Virus record (IMG/VR): IMGVR_UViG_3300025924_000017
Span: 128,001-192,000 of that record
Strand: one strand, 5' to 3'
DNA: 64,000 nucleotides
Source: a virus
Taxonomy: Duplodnaviria > Caudoviricetes
Positions 35,220 through 42,889 of this stretch are shown one piece after another; the first letter of the stretch is position 1; the number at the start of each line of letters is the position of its first letter. The translations under genes and the position numbers were made by a program. Below the pieces are notes generated by a model. It was not told the DNA's origin. It saw nothing but the letters and a program-made list of their open reading frames with translations, and did not search any database.

Positions 35220-35294
35220 GGCGACATGCTCAGAGTGGTTATGGACCGGTCTGCAAAATCGGGTATGTGAGTTCGATCCTCACTGTCGCCTCCA
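35220..35294 (+). tRNA. tRNA-Cys(GCA)
   Basis: GGCGACA/TGTCGCC acceptor stem, CT-GCA-AA loop, TTCGATC T loop, encoded CCA. Confidence 0.9.
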
Positions 35295-35367: not shown

Positions 35368-35820
35368 GTGACCCTTCCAGTTGCACAACCCTTGACGGAA
35401 ATCGATTTCGCATACATCGCTGGTATGATCGACGGTGAGGGCACTATTACGCTCACACGTACCCATCCAAACCAGTTCCGGACACCCGTGCTCAGCCTTA
35501 GTAGTACGACGCCAGAATTGCTGCTTCCCGCACAAGAAGCGTTTGGCGGGCGCGTGCAGACCAAGAAAGCGTCTAAGGCACATCATGCGATCCCTTATGA
35601 ATGGAGATTGCGTGGTCATGCGGCCTTGCGAGCAATTGAGAGGCTGTTGCCATATCTAAGGCACCCGGAAAAAGCGAGGCGCGCTAAGCTACTCCTCGGC
35701 AACTATAACCGCGTGACGGTGCGCAACGGGAAATATACCGAAAGTCAACGCCACCAACGGCTGCTGTTCGAGAGCGAATTTCTTGGAGCGCCGGTGCAAA
35801 TATGTGTTGACAAAACATAA
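35368..35820 (+). mobile_element. Free-standing single-motif LAGLIDADG homing endonuclease gene
   Basis: FAYIAGMIDGEGTI motif; 150 aa; lies between tRNA-Cys and tmRNA. Confidence 0.85.
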
Positions 35821-35835
35821 TACTGCCGTTATACA
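35807..35835 (+). promoter_or_regulatory. Sigma70-like promoter of the tmRNA
   Basis: TTGACA-17 nt-TATACA overlapping the endonuclease stop codon. Confidence 0.7.
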
Positions 35836-35841
35836 CGACAA

Positions 35842-36198
35842 CATCGTTGTAACTCGGACTTCGAGGAGCACGGACCGGACTCGGGGGCAGTACCCGACCG
35901 CTCCACCAAAACCCCACCGGGGGTCTAACGCACGAACGGATCGGATAGACCCCGGCCCGTCTGACACAGTTCGGCCGCAATGCCGGATTGGGCGTCCCGG
36001 TGAGGTTTTGATGGGGCGGAAACAGGATCGACGGACGAGCGAGGCGCAGGGACGCAACGTGGATTGATCTCCAGTCCCTAACGGGATGCTCGATCAAAAA
36101 GACAGAAATGTCGCCAATGACAATGAGCCTGAGGCTCTGCGTTTCGCTGCCTAATAGGTAAGCGCGGTTGGGGAGAACCGGGCAACAGAATCTCCCCG
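35842..36198 (+). ncRNA. ssrA: Circularly permuted (two-piece) tmRNA; outer ends approximate
   Basis: Acceptor piece ends GGGGGCAGTACCC GA CCGCTCC A CCA (35908); coding piece starts GGGGCGGAAACAGGATCGAC (36013); tag (A)ANDNEPEALRFAA at 36113-36154; GGCAACAGAA 3' motif. Confidence 0.92.
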
Positions 36199-36204
36199 CT
36201 TAAT

Positions 36205-37830
36205 TCCCGGAGACGGGATAACGACTATCTCGCCTGCGGGCGAGGGATGGCGGCAAGTTAGATTCGTGGTTGATCCACGAACAGGTGCCTAAGTCAGGCG
36301 TCCGGGAGAACGCGACAAAGGAATCTCCCGACTGCTCTTTGACAATTTGGATCGAATGACACTGACGCCTGCCTTTGGCTTTGATCGTTGCAACGTGAAA
36401 AGCTGGTGAATTGGCGGACAATGGATTTGGTAGGGACTGACGATAGCGGCGAACCGCGCATAGTGGCGTTGTAACAATAGGGACCGATCCTGATCACACT
36501 CCGGTTCAAGTCCGGTACCGGTGAGCCGAAGTCAGGCGCCAGTGTCATGAGAACCTTCATAGGCGCATCACTCCACCGTAAGGCACGCCAAGGCCGGTCG
36601 GTGCAGAAGACGAGGGCTAGGGGCCTTGGCGGGCTCCGAAACAACGGGCCGGGCTTGTAACCCGGCAGTGGGACTAAGCCCCTCCCGGGCGGCGTGGGCC
36701 GTCTAACGTTGTAGTCGTGGTGTGTCTATGAAGGTTCTGAAACAGATAGGCCGATACAAGGGCTGTAAGACCTCACGAGGCATGCAGGCGTAGCGGCTAC
36801 CATTGTGCCACGGGATAAAACGCACCGTCGTCATGACACGGGAGCGCCGGGGTGAGCCGAGCGGGGAGCAGCTTGGGAACAGAATGCTCCAAGAATTTTG
36901 GCGGTTCGACTAAGGAAGTCGGCTCGATGATAGGTAGCACCCTTCGAGACAATCCGGTGTCAACTCCGGCCCGTCAGCCCAGTCAGTGTCGCCATTGCAG
37001 ACGGCGTGACACATTCCAAAACTAAATTGTCTGCAAGGCGTGTTTCTCGAAGCGCGAGTGCGGGGAGAGATGTAGCGATGAGCACCGGAAGAAGGCCAAC
37101 TCCAATCCGGCGCGACTGCGCAAACATGCGGTTGACTCTGAGCCGATAGTTGGTCTGTTGGCTCACAGACGCAGTCGAGAAGTCAACCGGCAGACCGGCC
37201 GTTGCGTTAGGTCACGAATTCCCGAAAGGGATAGCTGCGACGTCGAAAGACGCTAATGAGCAGGAAGGCCGTAACTCCTGTGCAGCGCAAACGGTCGCGA
37301 AATTCATAGCAGGGTCAACCCGACGAAGCTGAACGCGTCAGTGGAGGGTCGAAGCTAGGGCACGAGGACGACTCAAATCGTGTCTCTCTAGGGGTCAGGT
37401 AGATAATAGACCGTGCGGTGCGGTCTCCGATCCCAGCCGTTTGAATTCTCGGGGCGCATCAGAACGTCGAGCCCCATGCGAGACTTAAAGACGTGACGTT
37501 GGGAGAGGCCCATCCAGATTTGAGTTTGAGGACTCGGCGCGACCTTCACGGGTGCAAATCCCGATGGGTCCTCATTAGAGAGCTTTGGTTCGACCAATAT
37601 CGGTGATCGACGCAGGCGCAACGCCAATAAGGCGACCTGTACTAATCCGGAATAAGCTCTCGCCAGTTTTGAGTGTCACGACCCGTATCCCTACATTGGT
37701 CAAGATCGTGACGCGATAGTCTGTGGCAACCTGTGCCCGCGAGGGTGGCGTATCCAATCGCCTTAATGGCTAGACCACTGAGCGGTGTGGGCAAAGCAGC
37801 GAGATGGTGCAAGGCCATCGACAGAATTTA
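36205..37830 (+). ncRNA. Candidate giant structured ncRNA(s), GOLLD/ROOL-like class; boundaries uncertain
   Basis: No credible ORF; 15-16 bp long-range helices, several T-loop and GNRA hairpins; tRNA-cluster context. Confidence 0.65.
37803..37828 (+). repeat. 26 nt direct repeat, copy 1 (T-loop-like hairpin)
   Basis: GATGGTGCAAGGCCATCGACAGAATT. Confidence 0.9.
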
Positions 37831-37839
37831 AGGACGTGT

Positions 37840-38130
37840 ATGGACCTCAAGACTCTTCAGGACGAAGTTAGCAAGCGCTGGGCGCGTCAGGTTGGCAACC
37901 CGTGTCACAATTCGGCGGGAGCCAATCACGCTCTCGTCCACATGATGAAGGCCCTTGGTAAGGTCGCTTCTGCACTCAACGATGCCGAACATGAAGGCCG
38001 TGGTGTGCAAGCGAACGAAGTCGAAAATTACCTCGCCGATCTGGTGATCTGCGCAGCGCGATTTTCCGATGGTGTCGTCGATCTCGGCGCTGCATGCGCT
38101 GCTCGACTTGAGGAGAAATTTCCGATCTAA
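37840..38130 (+). CDS. MazG-like nucleotide pyrophosphohydrolase fold protein
   Basis: LKTLQDEV...HALVHMMKALGKVA...EVENYLADLVI...DL......LEEKF. Confidence 0.65.
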   Translation: MDLKTLQDEVSKRWARQVGNPCHNSAGANHALVHMMKALGKVASALNDAEHEGRGVQANEVENYLADLVICAARFSDGVVDLGAACAARLEEKFPI

Positions 38131-38138
38131 TCGGACGT

Positions 38139-38164
38139 GATGGTGCAAGGCCATCGACAGAATT
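38139..38164 (+). repeat. 26 nt direct repeat, copy 2
   Basis: Identical to 37803-37828. Confidence 0.9.
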
Positions 38165-38166
38165 AA

Positions 38167-38246
38167 AGCGGGGTAGAGGAGCCCGGTCGTCCTCGCCAGC
38201 CTCATAAGCTGGAAATCGTGTGGTTCGAATCCCACCTCCGCAACCA
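38167..38246 (+). tRNA. tRNA-Met(CAT), initiator-like
   Basis: AGCGGGG/CTCCGCA with 1:72 mismatch, CCAGC-CTCATAA-GCTGG, TTCGAAT, CCA. Confidence 0.8.
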
Positions 38247-38457: not shown

Positions 38458-38534
38458 TGTGCTTTAGCTCAGTCAGACAGAGCGCCGGATTCATATCCCG
38501 GAGGTCGCCGGGGCGGAACCGGCAAGCACTACCA
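38458..38534 (+). tRNA. tRNA with CAT anticodon (Met or Ile2) and non-canonical T loop
   Basis: GTGCTT/AAGCAC acceptor stem, GCTC/GAGC D stem, TTCATAT loop, T loop GGCGGAA, CCA. Confidence 0.7.
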
Positions 38535-38760
38535 ACACCTGTCCCAATGTAGAGTTTCATTGAAAATGCCGCTGGTTTCATAGCGGTGACTTTCGCTTTT
38601 GCTACCTCGGCCAAAGCCGAATCGCTCCATTACGGCTCCTCTGAGCCTTCGATTCGGAAGTCGCCGACACACACGCAGGCTGTTGATGGAAATCGACAAC
38701 GGTCGCCCGTGCGATTGCAGTCGGCCCGAGCGCCTTACACCTCCAGCATTGGAGGTAAGC

Positions 38761-39244: not shown

Positions 39245-39616
39245 GTGGTCGGACAGGCTCAATTCTTCACCGAAGATGAGGCGGCAGCGTTTTTGAAGAT
39301 GACGCCGCGCATGCTCGCGGAACGGCGTCGCGCCGGGAAGATCGGGCATCATAAAGAAGGCCGATACGTTTCCTACAATCTCGACGATCTGTTGGCTTAC
39401 AGCGCGCGCATCCGGGAGAATGGAACTTGTCAAGAAGTCGGAAAAGCACCGTCGCTCGGATTGGGCAGCACGGCCCATACTGGCTCAGCAAGCGCACCGG
39501 CTCAGCCAATTGGCACCTCACGTACTACGACGAACAAAGGCGGAAGACCGTCCAAGAGAGCCTTGGCACAACGGACACAGCAGCCGCAGAAGCCCAAGTT
39601 GTTGCCCATTATCTAG
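39245..39616 (+). CDS. Excisionase-like HTH protein
   Basis: FFTEDEAAAFLKMTPRMLAERRRAGKI...GR.V.Y...DL; overlaps the integrase start. Confidence 0.75.
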   Translation: MVGQAQFFTEDEAAAFLKMTPRMLAERRRAGKIGHHKEGRYVSYNLDDLLAYSARIRENGTCQEVGKAPSLGLGSTAHTGSASAPAQPIGTSRTTTNKGGRPSKRALAQRTQQPQKPKLLPII

Positions 39617-40608
39617 CGACACTCCCAAATAACAAACCGCTCAAGGAAGAGGAAGCGACGTTCCACAGCGTCCTTGACCTCTACTATGAGACCTATGGCA
39701 AAAAGCTTGCGAGCGCGGGCGATGTCAAGCTCTCGATCAAATACTGGAAGGAAGCCATCGGTCCCACTGTCACGCTGGATAAGGTGACGATTGGGCTCGT
39801 GGAGGCCTTCATCGAGCAACTGCGGGGACTGGGCTTCTCGGAAGGCTACATCAGCCGCATTCTTTCCGTAGCACGGGCGGCCGTAAAGCGCGCGCTTCGT
39901 ACCGGTAAGATCAGCGTCGCGCCCTTCATCCCCGACAACGAAAATCGCCGCCAGAAGCTCAACAAGAAGCCTAAAGGGCGTCCGCTGGAATTGCGCGAGA
40001 TGGCTATCCTCTTCCTGTGCGCCGATCCTGCACACCTGCGTGTGTTCATGAGCTTGATGATCAACACGCTCTGCCGCCCTGACGCCGCGCTCGATCTCGG
40101 ACCGGCTCAGATTGACCTCGACAAAGGGGTCATCTTCCTCAACCCCGAGGACCGCGCCCAGACCAACAAGTTCCGACCTGCGGTCCCGATCACGACCGGC
40201 GTCCGTCCCATCGTCGAGGGATGCCCGGCTGAGGCGTTCGTCAATGTGGATGGGCATAAGATCGGCGAGATCAAGAAGGCTTGGCGCACCATGGTGCGGC
40301 GGTCTGGCCTACCCAATGCCGACCGCATCAAGCCCTATTCGATCCGCCACACCATGGGGCGAGAGCTTCGCGCAGGCGGGGCGTCCGGGGAGGACGTGAG
40401 CCTCTTCCTCGGGCACATTCCGGTCGGCGCAAACGAGGTCACGAGCGTCTACAGCCCCTACGATCCCAACTACCTGAAGAAGGCCGTCACGATCATTGAG
40501 GCCTACTGGGATCGGCTGCGGTGGGAGGTCGAGAAGCAGGCTGCGGTATTCACGCCACCGCCACTTCAGCCCGGCAAGCGGAACGATCTCCTCCAGAACG
40601 CCGCGTGA
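39427..40608 (+). CDS. int: Tyrosine integrase
   Basis: 393 aa with arm-binding N-terminus; TLCRP (R), YSIRHT, LGH, VYSPY; adjacent to attP. Confidence 0.9.
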   Translation: MSRSRKSTVARIGQHGPYWLSKRTGSANWHLTYYDEQRRKTVQESLGTTDTAAAEAQVVAHYLATLPNNKPLKEEEATFHSVLDLYYETYGKKLASAGDVKLSIKYWKEAIGPTVTLDKVTIGLVEAFIEQLRGLGFSEGYISRILSVARAAVKRALRTGKISVAPFIPDNENRRQKLNKKPKGRPLELREMAILFLCADPAHLRVFMSLMINTLCRPDAALDLGPAQIDLDKGVIFLNPEDRAQTNKFRPAVPITTGVRPIVEGCPAEAFVNVDGHKIGEIKKAWRTMVRRSGLPNADRIKPYSIRHTMGRELRAGGASGEDVSLFLGHIPVGANEVTSVYSPYDPNYLKKAVTIIEAYWDRLRWEVEKQAAVFTPPPLQPGKRNDLLQNAA

Positions 40609-40821
40609 ACAAAACAGCATTCGAAATCGTCCAAGACGTTGAAAGTGCGCCGTGTTCTCTGTGGCGAAACTGCGACGAAAGTGCGGTGAAATGCACGTAA
40701 AGTCGTGTATCGTGACGTAACCAAATGTAACTGACGCGATCTACGGCAAAATCACCCCGAAATGTCAGACCCTAAAAATTACCGTAAAACCTTGATTTTC
40801 CTCGATTTTATCTGAATTCAC

Positions 40822-40870
40822 TGGTCGGAGAGAGAGGATTCGAACCTCCGGCCCCCACGTCCCGAACGTG
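40822..40870 (-). other. attP core: 3' half of host tRNA-Pro(CGG)
   Basis: Minus strand CACG-TTCGGGA-CGTG GGGGCC GGAGG-TTCGAAT-CCTCT CTCTCCG ACCA, no D arm or 5' half; about 210 nt downstream of int. Confidence 0.85.
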
Positions 40871-40939
40871 ATAATCCCAAGTTTAAGTGATTGATTTCAT
40901 TCAACTTTTTTGGAGGTTTGCGGCGCAATGCGGGTGAAA

Positions 40940-42889
40940 TCATTGAACTTTTGTTGGTCTGCGGCTGTCCATCACCGCAACAATATGTTCTTCCTTCTCG
41001 TACGCCCGCTGAGCCATCTTACAATCCAGAGACCCGTTCGCTGTCAAGAAGAAGCCCATCAGCTTGTCCGCCAACTGCCCGATACGGCAGATGCGGTCGA
41101 AGTCCTGTTCCAGCTTCGTGGGTACCCAGTCGCCCTCCAAGAAGGCGCAGTCCTTTGCCCGGGTGAGGGTGTAGCCGACGCCGCCGGAGTCGTGCTGGAG
41201 GAAGATGATCCGGCAGTTCTCGTCGTCTTGGAACTTATCGACGCGACCCTGCCGCTTGTTCGGCGCGACCCCGCCGTAGATCAGCATCGGGTCGTAGGCC
41301 GCCATAGCCTCCTGTGCAGCCTTGAGCACGTCGGTGTGGTAGCCGAAGCAGACCAGCTTTTCGCCGCCGTCTAGGAACGTCTTGAGCCACGGGATCGCAG
41401 CGGAGAGCTTTGCGAGGCCTAGCTCCCGGCGGACCGACGCCATCTCCTCGAACAGGACGGCGATGGCGGGCGGCTCCAGTCCGAGAACCGAGGTCGCATA
41501 GTCCATGTTGAGCGCCCGGCTGTTCGGCTTGTCGCGGTCGTACATGGCGTCCTCGAAGCCCAAGAGGCTCGCCGCCCTGACGATCTGGGAGCCTTCGACG
41601 CCCTCGCGCCGGATGCGGTCCGCCTCGCTCTCGTTCTCCCGGACCATCGCCTCGTAGAGCTTGAGCGCCTGTGCGAGTTCGTCCTCTCGCGCGACGACCT
41701 GCCTGATCTCCGGGCTGTCGAGGATGATGATCTGGCGCGACTTGGGTGGAAGCTCGGGGAGCACCTCCGCCTTGAGACGGCGGATCATGAAGGTCGAGCG
41801 AATTTTCTCGCCTAGCTCCTCCAGATTACTCGCGCCGGAGAAGTTGTAGTCGCCTTTCCGGCGCCCCTTCTCGTCGTAACCGCCGAGGGTCTGATCCCAA
41901 TAGCCGCCACAGTAGCGATAGCCGAACTGAACTCGACCGCTGTCGGGGTCACGCGGATCGGGATTTCGTCCGAGACCATCCGGGTCGAACGCCTTGATCA
42001 TCGGCCACAGTTCGATGGGCCGGTTCATCATCGGTGTGCCGGTCAGGAAGATGCGCCGGTTCGCTTCGATGGCGCTGTACCAGACGGGCTTCCATCCGGT
42101 GGACTTGTCGCGCTTCTTACCGCCGAGGATGAAGAGTGTGCGTCCGCTGTCGGCCGTCTTCAGCGCGTGCGCTTCATCGCAAATCAAAAGGTCCCACGAA
42201 ACGGCTTTGATCTGATCGTGGAAACGACTCAGGATGTCGTAGTTGATAATGACGACGTCAGTATCGGGCCAGAATTCCTTGATGATCTCTTTGGTGCGAA
42301 AGCGCGGCTGGCCTTTACGCTTGCCCGACTTGAAGACGCCGATCTGCTCTTTGACTTCGAGGTTTGTCTCAGCGATGCCGACCGAGACGTTCTTGGTCTT
42401 CCAGAGTTCAAACTCGCGGCGCCAGTGTTCCTTAAGCGACGCCGGGGCGACGACTAGGCAGCGGCGCGCTTTCGGGTCGCCATTGAACACGCCGACGCCC
42501 ATGGGGGACTTGCCGAGCCCCGGCTGATCGCCGATGAGCGTGTCTTTGCGTTGAAGCGCGTATTCGATGCCCGCACACTGATAAGGGAAGAAGGCGAACG
42601 GCAGCCCGGTGCGCGGATGCATCCCCGGTGGAACCGGCGGCTCGTAGTGTGTGCTGTTGGCGAAGGAGAGGTCGTAGGACGCCGCCAGCGTCTCTTGGCG
42701 CGCAATGACGTGCGCAAGCGCTGCGGGCGTCCATTCGACGCCCTGCACGCGCTCGGCGATTTCCTGACTGTCGGTGATCCATGCCTTGCGGACGGGAGAC
42801 CATTTGAACCCGGCGCCTTTCCATAGCGCTCGTTCGTCCCATGTCCCAAGGCCAAAGAAGAACCCGTTCTTGAAGTGAATGCGGGCCAA
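40940..42889 (-). CDS. SNF2/SWI2-family helicase-like ATPase
   Basis: DQPGLGKS, ICDEAH, LTGTPMMN, Q..DRI.RIGQ. Confidence 0.88.
   Translation of the reverse strand: MARIHFKNGFFFGLGTWDERALWKGAGFKWSPVRKAWITDSQEIAERVQGVEWTPAALAHVIARQETLAASYDLSFANSTHYEPPVPPGMHPRTGLPFAFFPYQCAGIEYALQRKDTLIGDQPGLGKSPMGVGVFNGDPKARRCLVVAPASLKEHWRREFELWKTKNVSVGIAETNLEVKEQIGVFKSGKRKGQPRFRTKEIIKEFWPDTDVVIINYDILSRFHDQIKAVSWDLLICDEAHALKTADSGRTLFILGGKKRDKSTGWKPVWYSAIEANRRIFLTGTPMMNRPIELWPMIKAFDPDGLGRNPDPRDPDSGRVQFGYRYCGGYWDQTLGGYDEKGRRKGDYNFSGASNLEELGEKIRSTFMIRRLKAEVLPELPPKSRQIIILDSPEIRQVVAREDELAQALKLYEAMVRENESEADRIRREGVEGSQIVRAASLLGFEDAMYDRDKPNSRALNMDYATSVLGLEPPAIAVLFEEMASVRRELGLAKLSAAIPWLKTFLDGGEKLVCFGYHTDVLKAAQEAMAAYDPMLIYGGVAPNKRQGRVDKFQDDENCRIIFLQHDSGGVGYTLTRAKDCAFLEGDWVPTKLEQDFDRICRIGQLADKLMGFFLTANGSLDCKMAQRAYEKEEHIVAVMDSRRPTKVQ

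What the first reader, a model, noticed from the sequence alone, without database searches (positions are those of the whole stretch)
36205..37830. About 1.6 kb ORF-free, densely folded region: candidate giant ornate ncRNA
Seen: there is no credible ORF between the tmRNA and the MazG-like gene. Long-range helices: 36356-36371 with 36533-36548 (16 bp, one mismatch), followed at once by 36550-36564 with 36724-36738 (15 bp); 37129-37137 with 37181-37189; 37527-37534 with 37567-37574. T-loop-like hairpins: CCGG-TTCAAGT-CCGG near 36501, CGGG-TGCAAAT-CCCG at 37549-37563, GATGG-TGCAAGG-CCATC at 37803. GAAA tetraloop hairpins at 37220-37231 and 37241-37252. Established: GOLLD and ROOL are large T-loop/GNRA-rich RNAs of unknown function, often in phages, and GOLLD often sits near tRNA genes. 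Inference: this is one very large member of that class, several tandem RNAs, or a new class. It is longer than a typical GOLLD.
Basis: partly seen in the sequence, partly recalled or inferred. Interest (0 to 1): 0.9.

Follow-up and report, generated by a model that had tools for sequence, protein, structure and literature searches.

The report
Patchwork of folded phage RNA modules
The gene-free 1.6 kb after the phage's tmRNA gene is real non-coding DNA, but it looks like a fast-changing string of separate folded RNA modules, three of them well supported, and not one conserved giant RNA of the GOLLD/ROOL type.

Summary
The window comes from a 225.6 kb phiCbK-like (Dolichocephalovirinae-related) phage that is also seen integrated in a bacterial contig.

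Region 36205-37830 is non-coding. It has no ORF under three genetic codes, no codon-phase signal and no protein-family hit. It matches no Rfam family even at E<=10, so it is not GOLLD or ROOL.

Parts of the observation hold:
- The two long helices beat all 200 shuffles.
- T-loop hairpins are enriched (3 found, 0.15 expected) and occur on the + strand only.

Excess folding stability is limited to 36205-36738. The remaining 1.1 kb folds like shuffled or coding DNA.

Only three modules have support:
- M1 (36349-36555) is shared with the closest relative.
- M2 (36550-36738) is hyperstable and found only here.
- P (37214-37306) is a GNRA-hairpin, three-way-junction and pseudoknot motif shared by three phages, with 5 compensatory pairs of 17.

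In relatives the same tmRNA-to-tRNA-Met slot is roughly 0.02-0.86 kb long and mostly unalignable.

My best reading is a modular set of structured RNAs inside a stable-RNA operon, probably cut out like the T4 RNAC and RNAD RNAs. Their function is unknown. Other first readers in this scan noted the same stretch, but no look-alike DNA turned up in other genomes.

The parts
35803..36200 (+). Two-piece (permuted) alpha-type tmRNA gene. This is the upstream neighbour and gives context.
   Evidence: Rfam RF01849 102.8 bits and RF04321 84.6 bits. ARAGORN tag peptide.
36205..36348 (+). Run of small hairpins after the tmRNA. It includes a diverged second copy (36304-36329) of the tmRNA's terminal hairpin and a boxA-like 13-mer, TGCTCTTTGACAA, at 36333-36345.
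   Evidence: Direct repeat D2, 81%. z=-2.5. The boxA-like word is the only exact match in the 225 kb genome, but it is not conserved in L059.
36349..36555 (+). Module M1, a ~207 nt domain closed by a 25-32 bp helix (arms 36349-36380 and 36524-36555). Inside are ACGAUAGC followed by a hairpin (36440-36456), ACAAUAGGGACCGA (36474-36487), and a canonical T-arm CCGG-UUCAAGU-CCGG (36501-36515).
   Evidence: Helix. z=-3.0. Homologous domain in L059 14016-13803 (-), with nhmmer E of 1e-52 and 1e-54 on the two training rows and no other hits. 73% mean column identity. The closing helix and T-arm keep pairing through changed bases (and by eye).
36550..36738 (+). Module M2, a ~189 nt hyperstable multi-hairpin domain closed by a 22 bp helix (arms 36550-36571 and 36717-36738). 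It abuts M1 and is seen only in this phage.
   Evidence: MFE -99.7 to -100.9 kcal/mol, z=-4.8. No copy in the rest of the genome or in relatives.
36739..37213 (+). Unsupported stretch. It has local hairpins only, with no conservation and no excess stability.
   Evidence: z=+0.26 and -1.17. No significant block against L059, G3, G5, L081 or L082.
37214..37306 (+). Module P.
- GNRA hairpin 1: 37220-37231.
- 5 bp junction stem: 37234-37238 with 37282-37286.
- GNRA hairpin 2: 37241-37252.
- Hairpin 3: 37260-37281.
- The hairpin 3 loop GGCCGU (37267-37272) pairs with ACGGUC (37291-37296) to form a pseudoknot.
   Evidence: RNAalifold of W against L059 gives 17 pairs, 5 compensatory and 0 broken. Pseudoknot and hairpin 3 are 95.5% paired, against 25-50% when slid. 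A covariance model built from W+L059 finds the untrained copy in L038 7844-7757 at 49.6 bits, E=1e-11. A 49 nt block is 90% identical to G3.
37311..37799 (+). Unsupported stretch. It contains a small acceptor-like stem plus a T-loop-like arm (37527-37574; arm 37549-37563, CGGG-UGCAAAU-CCCG).
   Evidence: z=-0.34, -0.32 and +0.85. T-loop hairpin listed. No conserved block.
37800..37832 (+). First copy of a 33 nt direct repeat carrying the T-loop hairpin GAUGG-UGCAAGG-CCAUC followed by ACAGAAUU. The second copy, at 38136-38168, runs into tRNA-Met. The two copies bracket the 96 aa ORF at 37840-38130.
   Evidence: Repeat D1, 94%. Second hit in the own genome. The same UGCRAGU loop type occurs in the phage's own tRNA T-arms.
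38136..38246 (+). Second copy of the 33 nt repeat, followed by tRNA-Met (38167-38246). This is the downstream end of the slot.

Best explanation
The stretch is the non-coding filling of a phage stable-RNA operon on the + strand. The operon runs tRNA-Cys, tmRNA, this region, a small inserted ORF, tRNA-Met, then another tRNA.

The region is not one conserved giant RNA. It is a lineage-variable chain of independently folding modules:
- M1 is ~207 nt, closed by a long helix, with tRNA-like features inside.
- M2 is ~189 nt, hyperstable, and specific to this phage.
- P is ~93 nt: a GNRA-capped hairpin followed by a three-way junction that holds a second GNRA hairpin and a pseudoknotted hairpin.
- T-arm-like hairpins of the same type as the phage's own tRNAs complete the set.

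These are joined by about 1 kb that shows neither conservation nor excess structure.

Inferred mechanism (not shown): the island is transcribed as one long untranslated precursor. Strong structure, and in this phage a boxA-like word, may protect it from premature termination. Host RNases then cut it. RNase P and RNase Z would act at the tRNA and tRNA-like parts. A double-strand-specific enzyme such as RNase III would act at the >=22 bp closing helices. The products would be discrete stable RNAs of 100-200 nt, like the RNAC and RNAD RNAs of the T4 tRNA region.

What M1 and P do is unknown. Their tRNA-like features suggest they bind or decoy a tRNA-recognising factor.
For: Non-coding: and 40 (no genes called in an independent assembly).

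Strand: all flanking RNA genes are on the + strand. T-loop hairpins occur only on +. M1 and M2 are more stable on + than on -. The region is 55% purine.

One transcription unit is plausible: there is no + strand terminator-like site from 34800 until 38567, just after the last tRNA.

Modularity:
- The only helices above chance are two local ones that close adjacent ~200 nt domains.
- Fold z-scores are significant only for 36205-36738.
- M1 is conserved only in the nearest relative L059, whose helicase is 78% identical.
- P is conserved in three phages, with 5 of 17 compensatory pairs, a supported pseudoknot, and covariance-model detection of an untrained copy.
- Slot length varies widely: 1.97 kb here, 0.86 kb in L059, ~0.8 kb in G3, ~0.55 kb in G5, 0.21 kb in CcrBL10 and CcrRogue, and ~0.02 kb in L061.
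- The slots of G3, G5 and L081 also contain long stems above their shuffle range, with unrelated sequence. In L059 the best ungapped stem stays just inside that range.

Against: - There are no expression data.
- Only 2-3 independent sequences exist for M1 and P, so covariation cannot be tested statistically. The inner fold of M1 is ambiguous, because three alignments gave different inner helices.
- M2 has no homolog at all. Its stability alone does not prove function.
- The boxA-like word is absent from L059. With one mismatch allowed, 13 of 100 shuffles contain such a word.
- The RNase III idea rests on helix length alone.
Confidence: 0.55

Rival explanations
1. One giant ornate RNA of a new class, ~1.2-1.6 kb. 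M1, M2, P and the T-loop hairpins would be domains of a single functional molecule, perhaps self-assembling like GOLLD or ROOL.
For: - Contiguous ORF-free 1.6 kb with no internal + strand terminator.
- Enrichment of T-loop and GNRA hairpins on one strand.
- M1 and P keep the same order in W and L059.
- A boxA-like word lies just before M1, as in rRNA operons.
- GOLLD also has a variable half and sits near tRNAs (PMC5737381).
Against: - No long-range helix above chance beyond the two local closures.
- 1.1 kb of the 1.6 kb folds like shuffled sequence.
- The nearest relative has half the length and shares under 20% of it. Other relatives have 0.02-0.8 kb.
- No Rfam match.
Confidence: 0.13
2. Mostly non-functional filler. 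The slot would be a recombination and insertion hot spot that collects duplicated and decaying pieces of tRNA and tmRNA genes and insertion scars. The few conserved pieces would persist by recent common descent or act only as processing signals.
For: - Extreme length and sequence turnover of the slot.
- A diverged duplicate of the tmRNA terminal hairpin.
- A 33 nt T-arm-like repeat brackets an inserted ORF whose homologs sit in unrelated contexts.
- G3 carries a partial duplicate of the tRNA-Met 5' half.
- T-loop hairpins are of the phage tRNA type.
Against: - Pairing is kept through compensatory changes in P and in the M1 closing helix.
- M1 is about as conserved as the tmRNA itself between W and L059 (73% mean column identity against 62% blastn identity).
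- There is no significant similarity of the region to the tmRNA, and none to any of the 28 tRNAs beyond T-arm-length matches.
Confidence: 0.24
3. A member of the GOLLD or ROOL family.
For: Phage location next to tRNA genes, and T-loop/GNRA content.
Against: No hit to RF01998, RF03087 or any other family at E<=10 on 4 kb or on 1.6 kb alone. The architecture differs.
Confidence: 0.01
4. A long cis-acting leader (riboswitch-like) for the downstream 96 aa ORF, or a hidden or recoded protein gene.
For: The region lies directly upstream of the ORF on the same strand. P is riboswitch-sized and pseudoknotted.
Against: L059 and G3 carry P without that ORF. The ORF looks like an insertion between 33 nt repeats. 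No frame opens under codes 11 or 4 or with TAG=Q. There is no codon-phase signal.
Confidence: 0.04

Closest known systems
Phage T4 RNAC and RNAD (stable RNAs 'species 1 and 2') of the T4 tRNA region
   Same: Structured RNAs of unknown role encoded among phage tRNA genes and transcribed with them (PMC3014915). M1, M2 and P are roughly 90-210 nt and lie in line with tmRNA and tRNA genes on one strand.
   Different: No sequence or Rfam relation. Expression and processing are not shown here. The modules are embedded in a much longer untranslated stretch next to a tmRNA gene.
GOLLD (RF01998) and ROOL (RF03087) large ornate RNAs
   Same: Large non-coding tracts in phages or prophages near tRNA genes, possibly co-transcribed with them (PMC5737381). 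Rich in GNRA and T-loop-type motifs.
   Different: No covariance-model match at E<=10. There is no conserved multi-junction core spanning the region. Two thirds of the region has no fold signal. The host group is alphaproteobacterial phages.
Bacterial Y RNAs (YrlA-type tRNA mimics)
   Same: M1 is a domain closed by a long terminal helix that encloses a T-arm and other tRNA-like words.
   Different: No Rfam Y RNA or YrlA hit. No Ro/Rsr (TROVE) gene in the phage. The order of elements inside M1 does not follow the YrlA permutation as I recall it from memory.
rRNA-operon design: boxA antitermination plus long processing stems around each mature RNA
   Same: TGCUCUUUGACAA differs by one base from the E. 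coli rrn boxA core GCUCUUUAACAA (that string is held in PMC2724277). It sits 3 nt before the 5' arm of a >=25 bp helix that brackets M1.
   Different: The word is not conserved in L059. Nus-factor binding and RNase III cleavage are untested.

Membership tests
GOLLD RNA (RF01998) | Match to the family covariance model | tested here: not met
   No hit at gathering threshold or at E<=10.
GOLLD RNA (RF01998) | Location in phages or prophages, often next to tRNA genes | tested here: met
   The region lies between tmRNA and tRNA-Met in a 225 kb phage. This context is not specific to GOLLD.
ROOL RNA (RF03087) | Match to the family covariance model | tested here: not met
   No hit at E<=10.
ROOL RNA (RF03087) | [quoted passage not shown] | tested here: not met
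   Conserved parts are two separate modules of ~200 and ~93 nt. One pseudoknot is supported.
Y RNA / YrlA | Rfam model match | tested here: not met
   No hit.
Y RNA / YrlA | Partner Ro/Rsr (TROVE domain) gene in the same genome | tested here: not met
   PF05731 is absent from the 225 kb phage. The control genomes did score. A host-encoded Rsr cannot be excluded.
tRNA / tRNA pseudogene | Cloverleaf recognised by the tRNA models | tested here: not met
   No RF00005 or ARAGORN hit inside 36205-37830. Only T-arm-length similarity to the phage's own tRNAs.
Phage tRNA-region stable RNAs (T4 RNAC/RNAD kind) | Encoded within a tRNA or stable-RNA gene cluster on the same strand | tested here: met
Phage tRNA-region stable RNAs (T4 RNAC/RNAD kind) | Accumulates as a discrete processed RNA during infection | not testable with these tools
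rrn-type boxA antitermination site | boxA consensus word on the transcribed strand upstream of the structured RNA | tested here: met
   TGCTCTTTGACAA at 36333-36345 is the single exact match in the genome.
rrn-type boxA antitermination site | Conservation in relatives | tested here: not met
   Absent from the islands of L059, G3 and G5, allowing up to 2 mismatches.
rrn-type boxA antitermination site | NusB/NusE binding | not testable with these tools
   No tool here tests protein-RNA binding of this kind.

The most novel reading that the evidence does not exclude
M1, M2, P and the T-loop elements are domains of one ~1.3-1.6 kb phage RNA. It would be transcribed under boxA-type antitermination and matured through rRNA-like processing stems. 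That would make it the largest non-ribosomal structured RNA known from a phage, possibly a scaffold that captures tRNA- or tmRNA-handling factors.
Probability: 0.12. Interest if true: 0.85.

Novelty: new variant of a known kind. Interest (0 to 1): 0.45.

Why it matters
Giant phages often carry tRNA and tmRNA genes, and the DNA between them is usually ignored. In this case that DNA holds at least two uncatalogued structured RNA motifs, M1 and P, whose pairing is kept through compensatory change. They sit in a slot that expands from about 20 nt to 2 kb within one phage group.

This makes the slot a natural place to study how phage stable-RNA operons gain and lose RNA modules. The P motif is small enough (93 nt, pseudoknotted) for direct biochemical and structural work.

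The result also cautions against reading a long ORF-free, hairpin-rich tract as one giant RNA.

Tried and rejected
- Rfam at three levels of stringency gave nothing.
- blastn of the region against 50,697 GenBank phages gave no match.
- Pattern scans:
  - The P motif in IMG/VR found only G3.
  - The P motif in metagenomes gave 12 hits. One was real (L049, the same phage as G3) and 11 were chance coding hits.
  - M1 patterns in IMG/VR gave 0 hits.
  - The hairpin 1 pattern gave one chance hit.
- The neighbouring 96 aa protein is widespread, but its homologs lie in unrelated gene neighbourhoods, so it was useless as an anchor.
- Helicase-anchored retrieval gave L059, L061, L081 and L082 with islands. 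L060, L063 and L064 had none.
- GTDB genome contigs held only distant helicases, at most 40% identical.
- The P covariance model found nothing in 151 sampled alphaproteobacterial genomes.
- nhmmer profiles of M1 and P found no further copies in the phage genome or in 12 related loci.
- No tandem repeats.
- The antisense ORFs of W and L059 are not homologous, E=0.32.
- The exact word GCTCTTTGACAA was not found in three alphaproteobacterial genomes. Drafts may lack rrn operons, so this is uninformative.
- A search among relatives is not available for virus records.
- A possible extra P-like copy at ~37084 that I saw by eye was not supported by the profile or the covariance model.

Full report
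**Origin and setting**

The window is bases 128001-192000 of a 225.6 kb IMG/VR phage record. Its DNA polymerase I is about 60% identical to that of Caulobacter phages CcrRogue, CcrBL10 and phiCbK (Dolichocephalovirinae).

The exact protein of the ORF at 37840-38130 also occurs on a 389,787 nt ENA contig. There the phage genes end at the integrase and are followed by genes that look bacterial (GST, resolvase, spermine synthase, LemA). The phage therefore also exists integrated.

The region lies in a + strand island of RNA genes:
- tRNA-Cys at 35220
- tmRNA at 35803-36200
- the region itself
- a 96 aa ORF at 37840-38130
- tRNA-Met at 38167
- a further tRNA at 38458

The first + strand terminator-like hairpins come at 38567 and 39195.

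**Is it non-coding?**

Yes, on every test available.
- The longest start-to-stop ORFs are 60 aa (+) and 116 aa (-).
- Reading TAG as Gln or TGA as Trp opens nothing convincing.
- The GC spread over the three codon phases is 0.09 in the region, against a genome median of 0.23.
- None of the nine longest stop-to-stop frames hits PHROGs convincingly, and the frames tested against Pfam hit nothing.
- The antisense frames of this phage and of its closest relative are not homologous.
- An independent assembly has no gene call there.

**Is the observation more than chance?**

Partly.
They score 20.5 and 19.0 on an ungapped stem score. In 200 dinucleotide shuffles the best stem never passed 18.5 and the second-best never passed 13. 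Five coding controls scored 10-14.5.
- The third-best stem (12.0) is at chance level.
- T-loop-type hairpins (loop U-G/U-C-R-A-N-N, stem of at least 4 bp) number 3 on the + strand against 0.15 expected. None of 300 shuffles reaches that, and there are none on the - strand.
- GNRA hairpins with at least 4 bp number 5 against 1.5 expected, P=0.013.
- Thermodynamic excess is confined to the 5' third. Segment z-scores are -2.5 (36205-36348), -3.0 (M1) and -4.8 (M2). Every segment from 36739 to 37835 lies between +0.85 and -1.2, the same as the coding controls.

**Known families**

cmscan against Rfam 15 finds only the tmRNA and the tRNAs. Inside the region nothing reaches E<=1 even when the 1.6 kb is searched alone. 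GOLLD, ROOL, Y RNA/YrlA, group I and II introns, RNase P RNA and tRNA are all absent. The phage has no TROVE (Ro/Rsr) gene.

**Relatives**

I anchored on the SNF2 helicase and the polymerase that flank the island, and recovered the homologous island from nine relatives.

The distance from tmRNA to the first tRNA-Met varies widely:

| Source | Slot length |
|---|---|
| This window (includes the 0.29 kb ORF) | 1.97 kb |
| L059 (closest relative; helicase 78%) | 0.86 kb |
| G3 (L038 = L049) | ~0.8 kb |
| G5 (L055) | ~0.55 kb |
| CcrBL10, CcrRogue | 0.21 kb |
| L061 | ~0.02 kb |

The slots of G3, G5 and L081 also hold long stems above their shuffle range, with unrelated sequences. In L059 the best ungapped stem stays just inside that range.

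Between the window and L059 the flanking RNA genes align (tmRNA 62%, tRNA-Met region 70%). Inside the slot only short blocks pass a shuffle threshold.

**Module M1 (36349-36555)**

The window and L059 (14016-13803, - strand) align over the whole domain with 73% mean column identity. They share the words GUUGCAA, ACGAUAGC and ACAAUAGGGACCGA, and a T-arm. In both, the domain is closed by a long helix of 22 bp or more.

Read directly:
- In the closing helix, CGCCUG/CAGGCG becomes AGCCUG/CAGGCU.
- In the closing helix, ACACUG/CAGUGU becomes ACGCUUG/CAAGCGU.
- The T-arm CCGG/CCGG becomes GCAGG/CCUGC.
- The small hairpin GCGG/CCGC becomes GCAG/CUGC.

RNAalifold on two different alignments keeps the closing helix and finds 1-7 compensatory pairs. 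It disagrees on the inner helices, so the inner fold is unresolved. nhmmer finds M1 nowhere else in the genome or in 12 related loci.

**Module M2 (36550-36738)**

M2 starts one base after the well-paired part of the M1 helix. It is closed by a 22 bp helix, is very stable (about -100 kcal/mol, z=-4.8), and has no counterpart anywhere.

**Module P (37214-37306)**

RNAalifold of the window against L059 predicts 17 pairs, 5 of them with both bases changed and none broken. The predicted structure is GNRA hairpin 1, then a 5 bp junction stem (GCUGC/GCAGC against GCCAC/GUGGC) that encloses GNRA hairpin 2 and hairpin 3.

The loop of hairpin 3 (GGCCGU) pairs with ACGGUC 19 nt downstream. In L059 a C-G pair there is replaced by U-A. 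Over four copies 95.5% of cells pair, against 25-50% when the partner is slid by 1-3 columns.

A covariance model built from the window and L059 alone finds the copy in G3 at 49.6 bits (E=1e-11). In that copy the stem of hairpin 1 is wholly replaced (GUGUC/GACAC) and hairpin 2 is deleted. G3 holds a second, partial copy 165 nt downstream.

P was not found in IMG/VR or in the metagenome contigs beyond these phages. It was also not found in 151 sampled alphaproteobacterial genomes.

**T-loop hairpins**

The loops UGCAAAU and UGCAAGG are of the same unusual type (G at the second loop position) as the T-arms of at least eight hairpins in this phage's own tRNA clusters. They are best read as T-arm derivatives or mimics.

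One of them is part of a 33 nt direct repeat that brackets the 96 aa ORF. Homologs of that ORF are common but lie in unrelated neighbourhoods. L059 and G3 lack the ORF at this position. The ORF therefore looks like a cassette inserted in front of tRNA-Met. Its 'MazG-like' label has no support from Pfam or PDB sequence search. It matches only a PHROG of unknown function.

**boxA-like word**

A first-stage note pointed to a boxA-like word. TGCTCTTTGACAA occurs once in the whole 225 kb genome, on the + strand at 36333-36345, 3 nt before the M1 helix. It differs by one base from the E. coli rrn boxA core (string held in PMC2724277).

It is not present in the islands of L059 or the other relatives. 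With one mismatch allowed, 13% of shuffles contain such a word. I treat it as a lead only.

**Conclusion**

The tract is genuinely non-coding and contains real structured RNA. The evidence favours a chain of separate modules inside a stable-RNA operon over a single giant ornate RNA:
- The significant helices are local.
- Only two modules are conserved, and they are separated by variable DNA.
- Two thirds of the tract has no signal of any kind.
- The slot length varies about a hundred-fold among relatives.

[quoted passage not shown] The resemblance to GOLLD and ROOL (PMC5737381) is one of context, not of family.

Transcription, processing and function are inferred, not shown. The data set (2-3 independent sequences per module) is too small for a statistical covariation test.

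Noticed in passing
window 39427-40940; ENA contig: The same phage (identical 96 aa and 649 aa proteins) is seen integrated in a 389,787 nt contig. Genes that look bacterial (GST, resolvase, spermine synthase, LemA) follow directly after the integrase. This would be a temperate phiCbK-like jumbo phage.
   Followed up: partly
genome 96336-97366 and 101588 (outside the window); window 37549, 37803, 38139: At least eight T-arm-like hairpins in the phage's tRNA clusters carry the loop UGCRAGU, with G where tRNAs normally have U55. The T-loop hairpins of the studied region are of the same type.
   Followed up: partly
window 37800-37832 and 38136-38168: A 33 nt direct repeat (94% identical) brackets the 96 aa ORF. 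Homologs of the ORF are widespread in unrelated contexts. This looks like a cassette insertion into a T-arm-like site just before tRNA-Met.
   Followed up: partly
window 36333-36345: TGCTCTTTGACAA is one base from the E. coli rrn boxA core. It is the only exact copy in the 225 kb genome and is not conserved in relatives.
   Followed up: partly
L038 7508-7312 (- strand): In phage G3 a ~115 nt unit is duplicated in tandem. Each copy has a long stem enclosing two hairpins, one GNRA-capped, followed by the 5' half of tRNA-Met. The stems differ by compensatory changes (GUAACAC/GUGUUAC against GUAAGGCC/GGCCUUAC; GGAA against GUGA loops).
   Followed up: no
L059 13564-13514 and 13340-13291 (- strand): Two mini tRNA-like elements not called by ARAGORN. 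Each has a 7 bp acceptor-like stem (GCGGGAC/GUCCCGC; GCGGGUA/UACCCGC), one or two hairpins including a T-arm-like one, and ends in UCCA.
   Followed up: no
L039 7905-8040; L055 19040-19160: CcrBL10 and G5 carry a repeated motif (GAACGCC ... GGCGUGACA ... GGAGAG ... AGCACU) between their two tRNA-Met genes. It may be another uncatalogued structured RNA of phiCbK-like phages.
   Followed up: no
L038 9523-9596, L059 15156-15228, L081 10769-10839: Relatives encode a tRNA with anticodon CUA (amber suppressor type) between tRNA-Cys and the tmRNA. This window has a weak LAGLIDADG-like ORF there instead (35368-35820, Pfam E=0.007), which was not called as a gene in the ENA assembly.
   Followed up: no
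genome 39359-40550 (outside the window): Another 1.19 kb stretch with no open frame of 120 codons or more on either strand, outside the tRNA clusters.
   Followed up: no
It is clearly conserved. The only Rfam hit is a weak one to RAGATH-36 (E=0.43).
   Followed up: no
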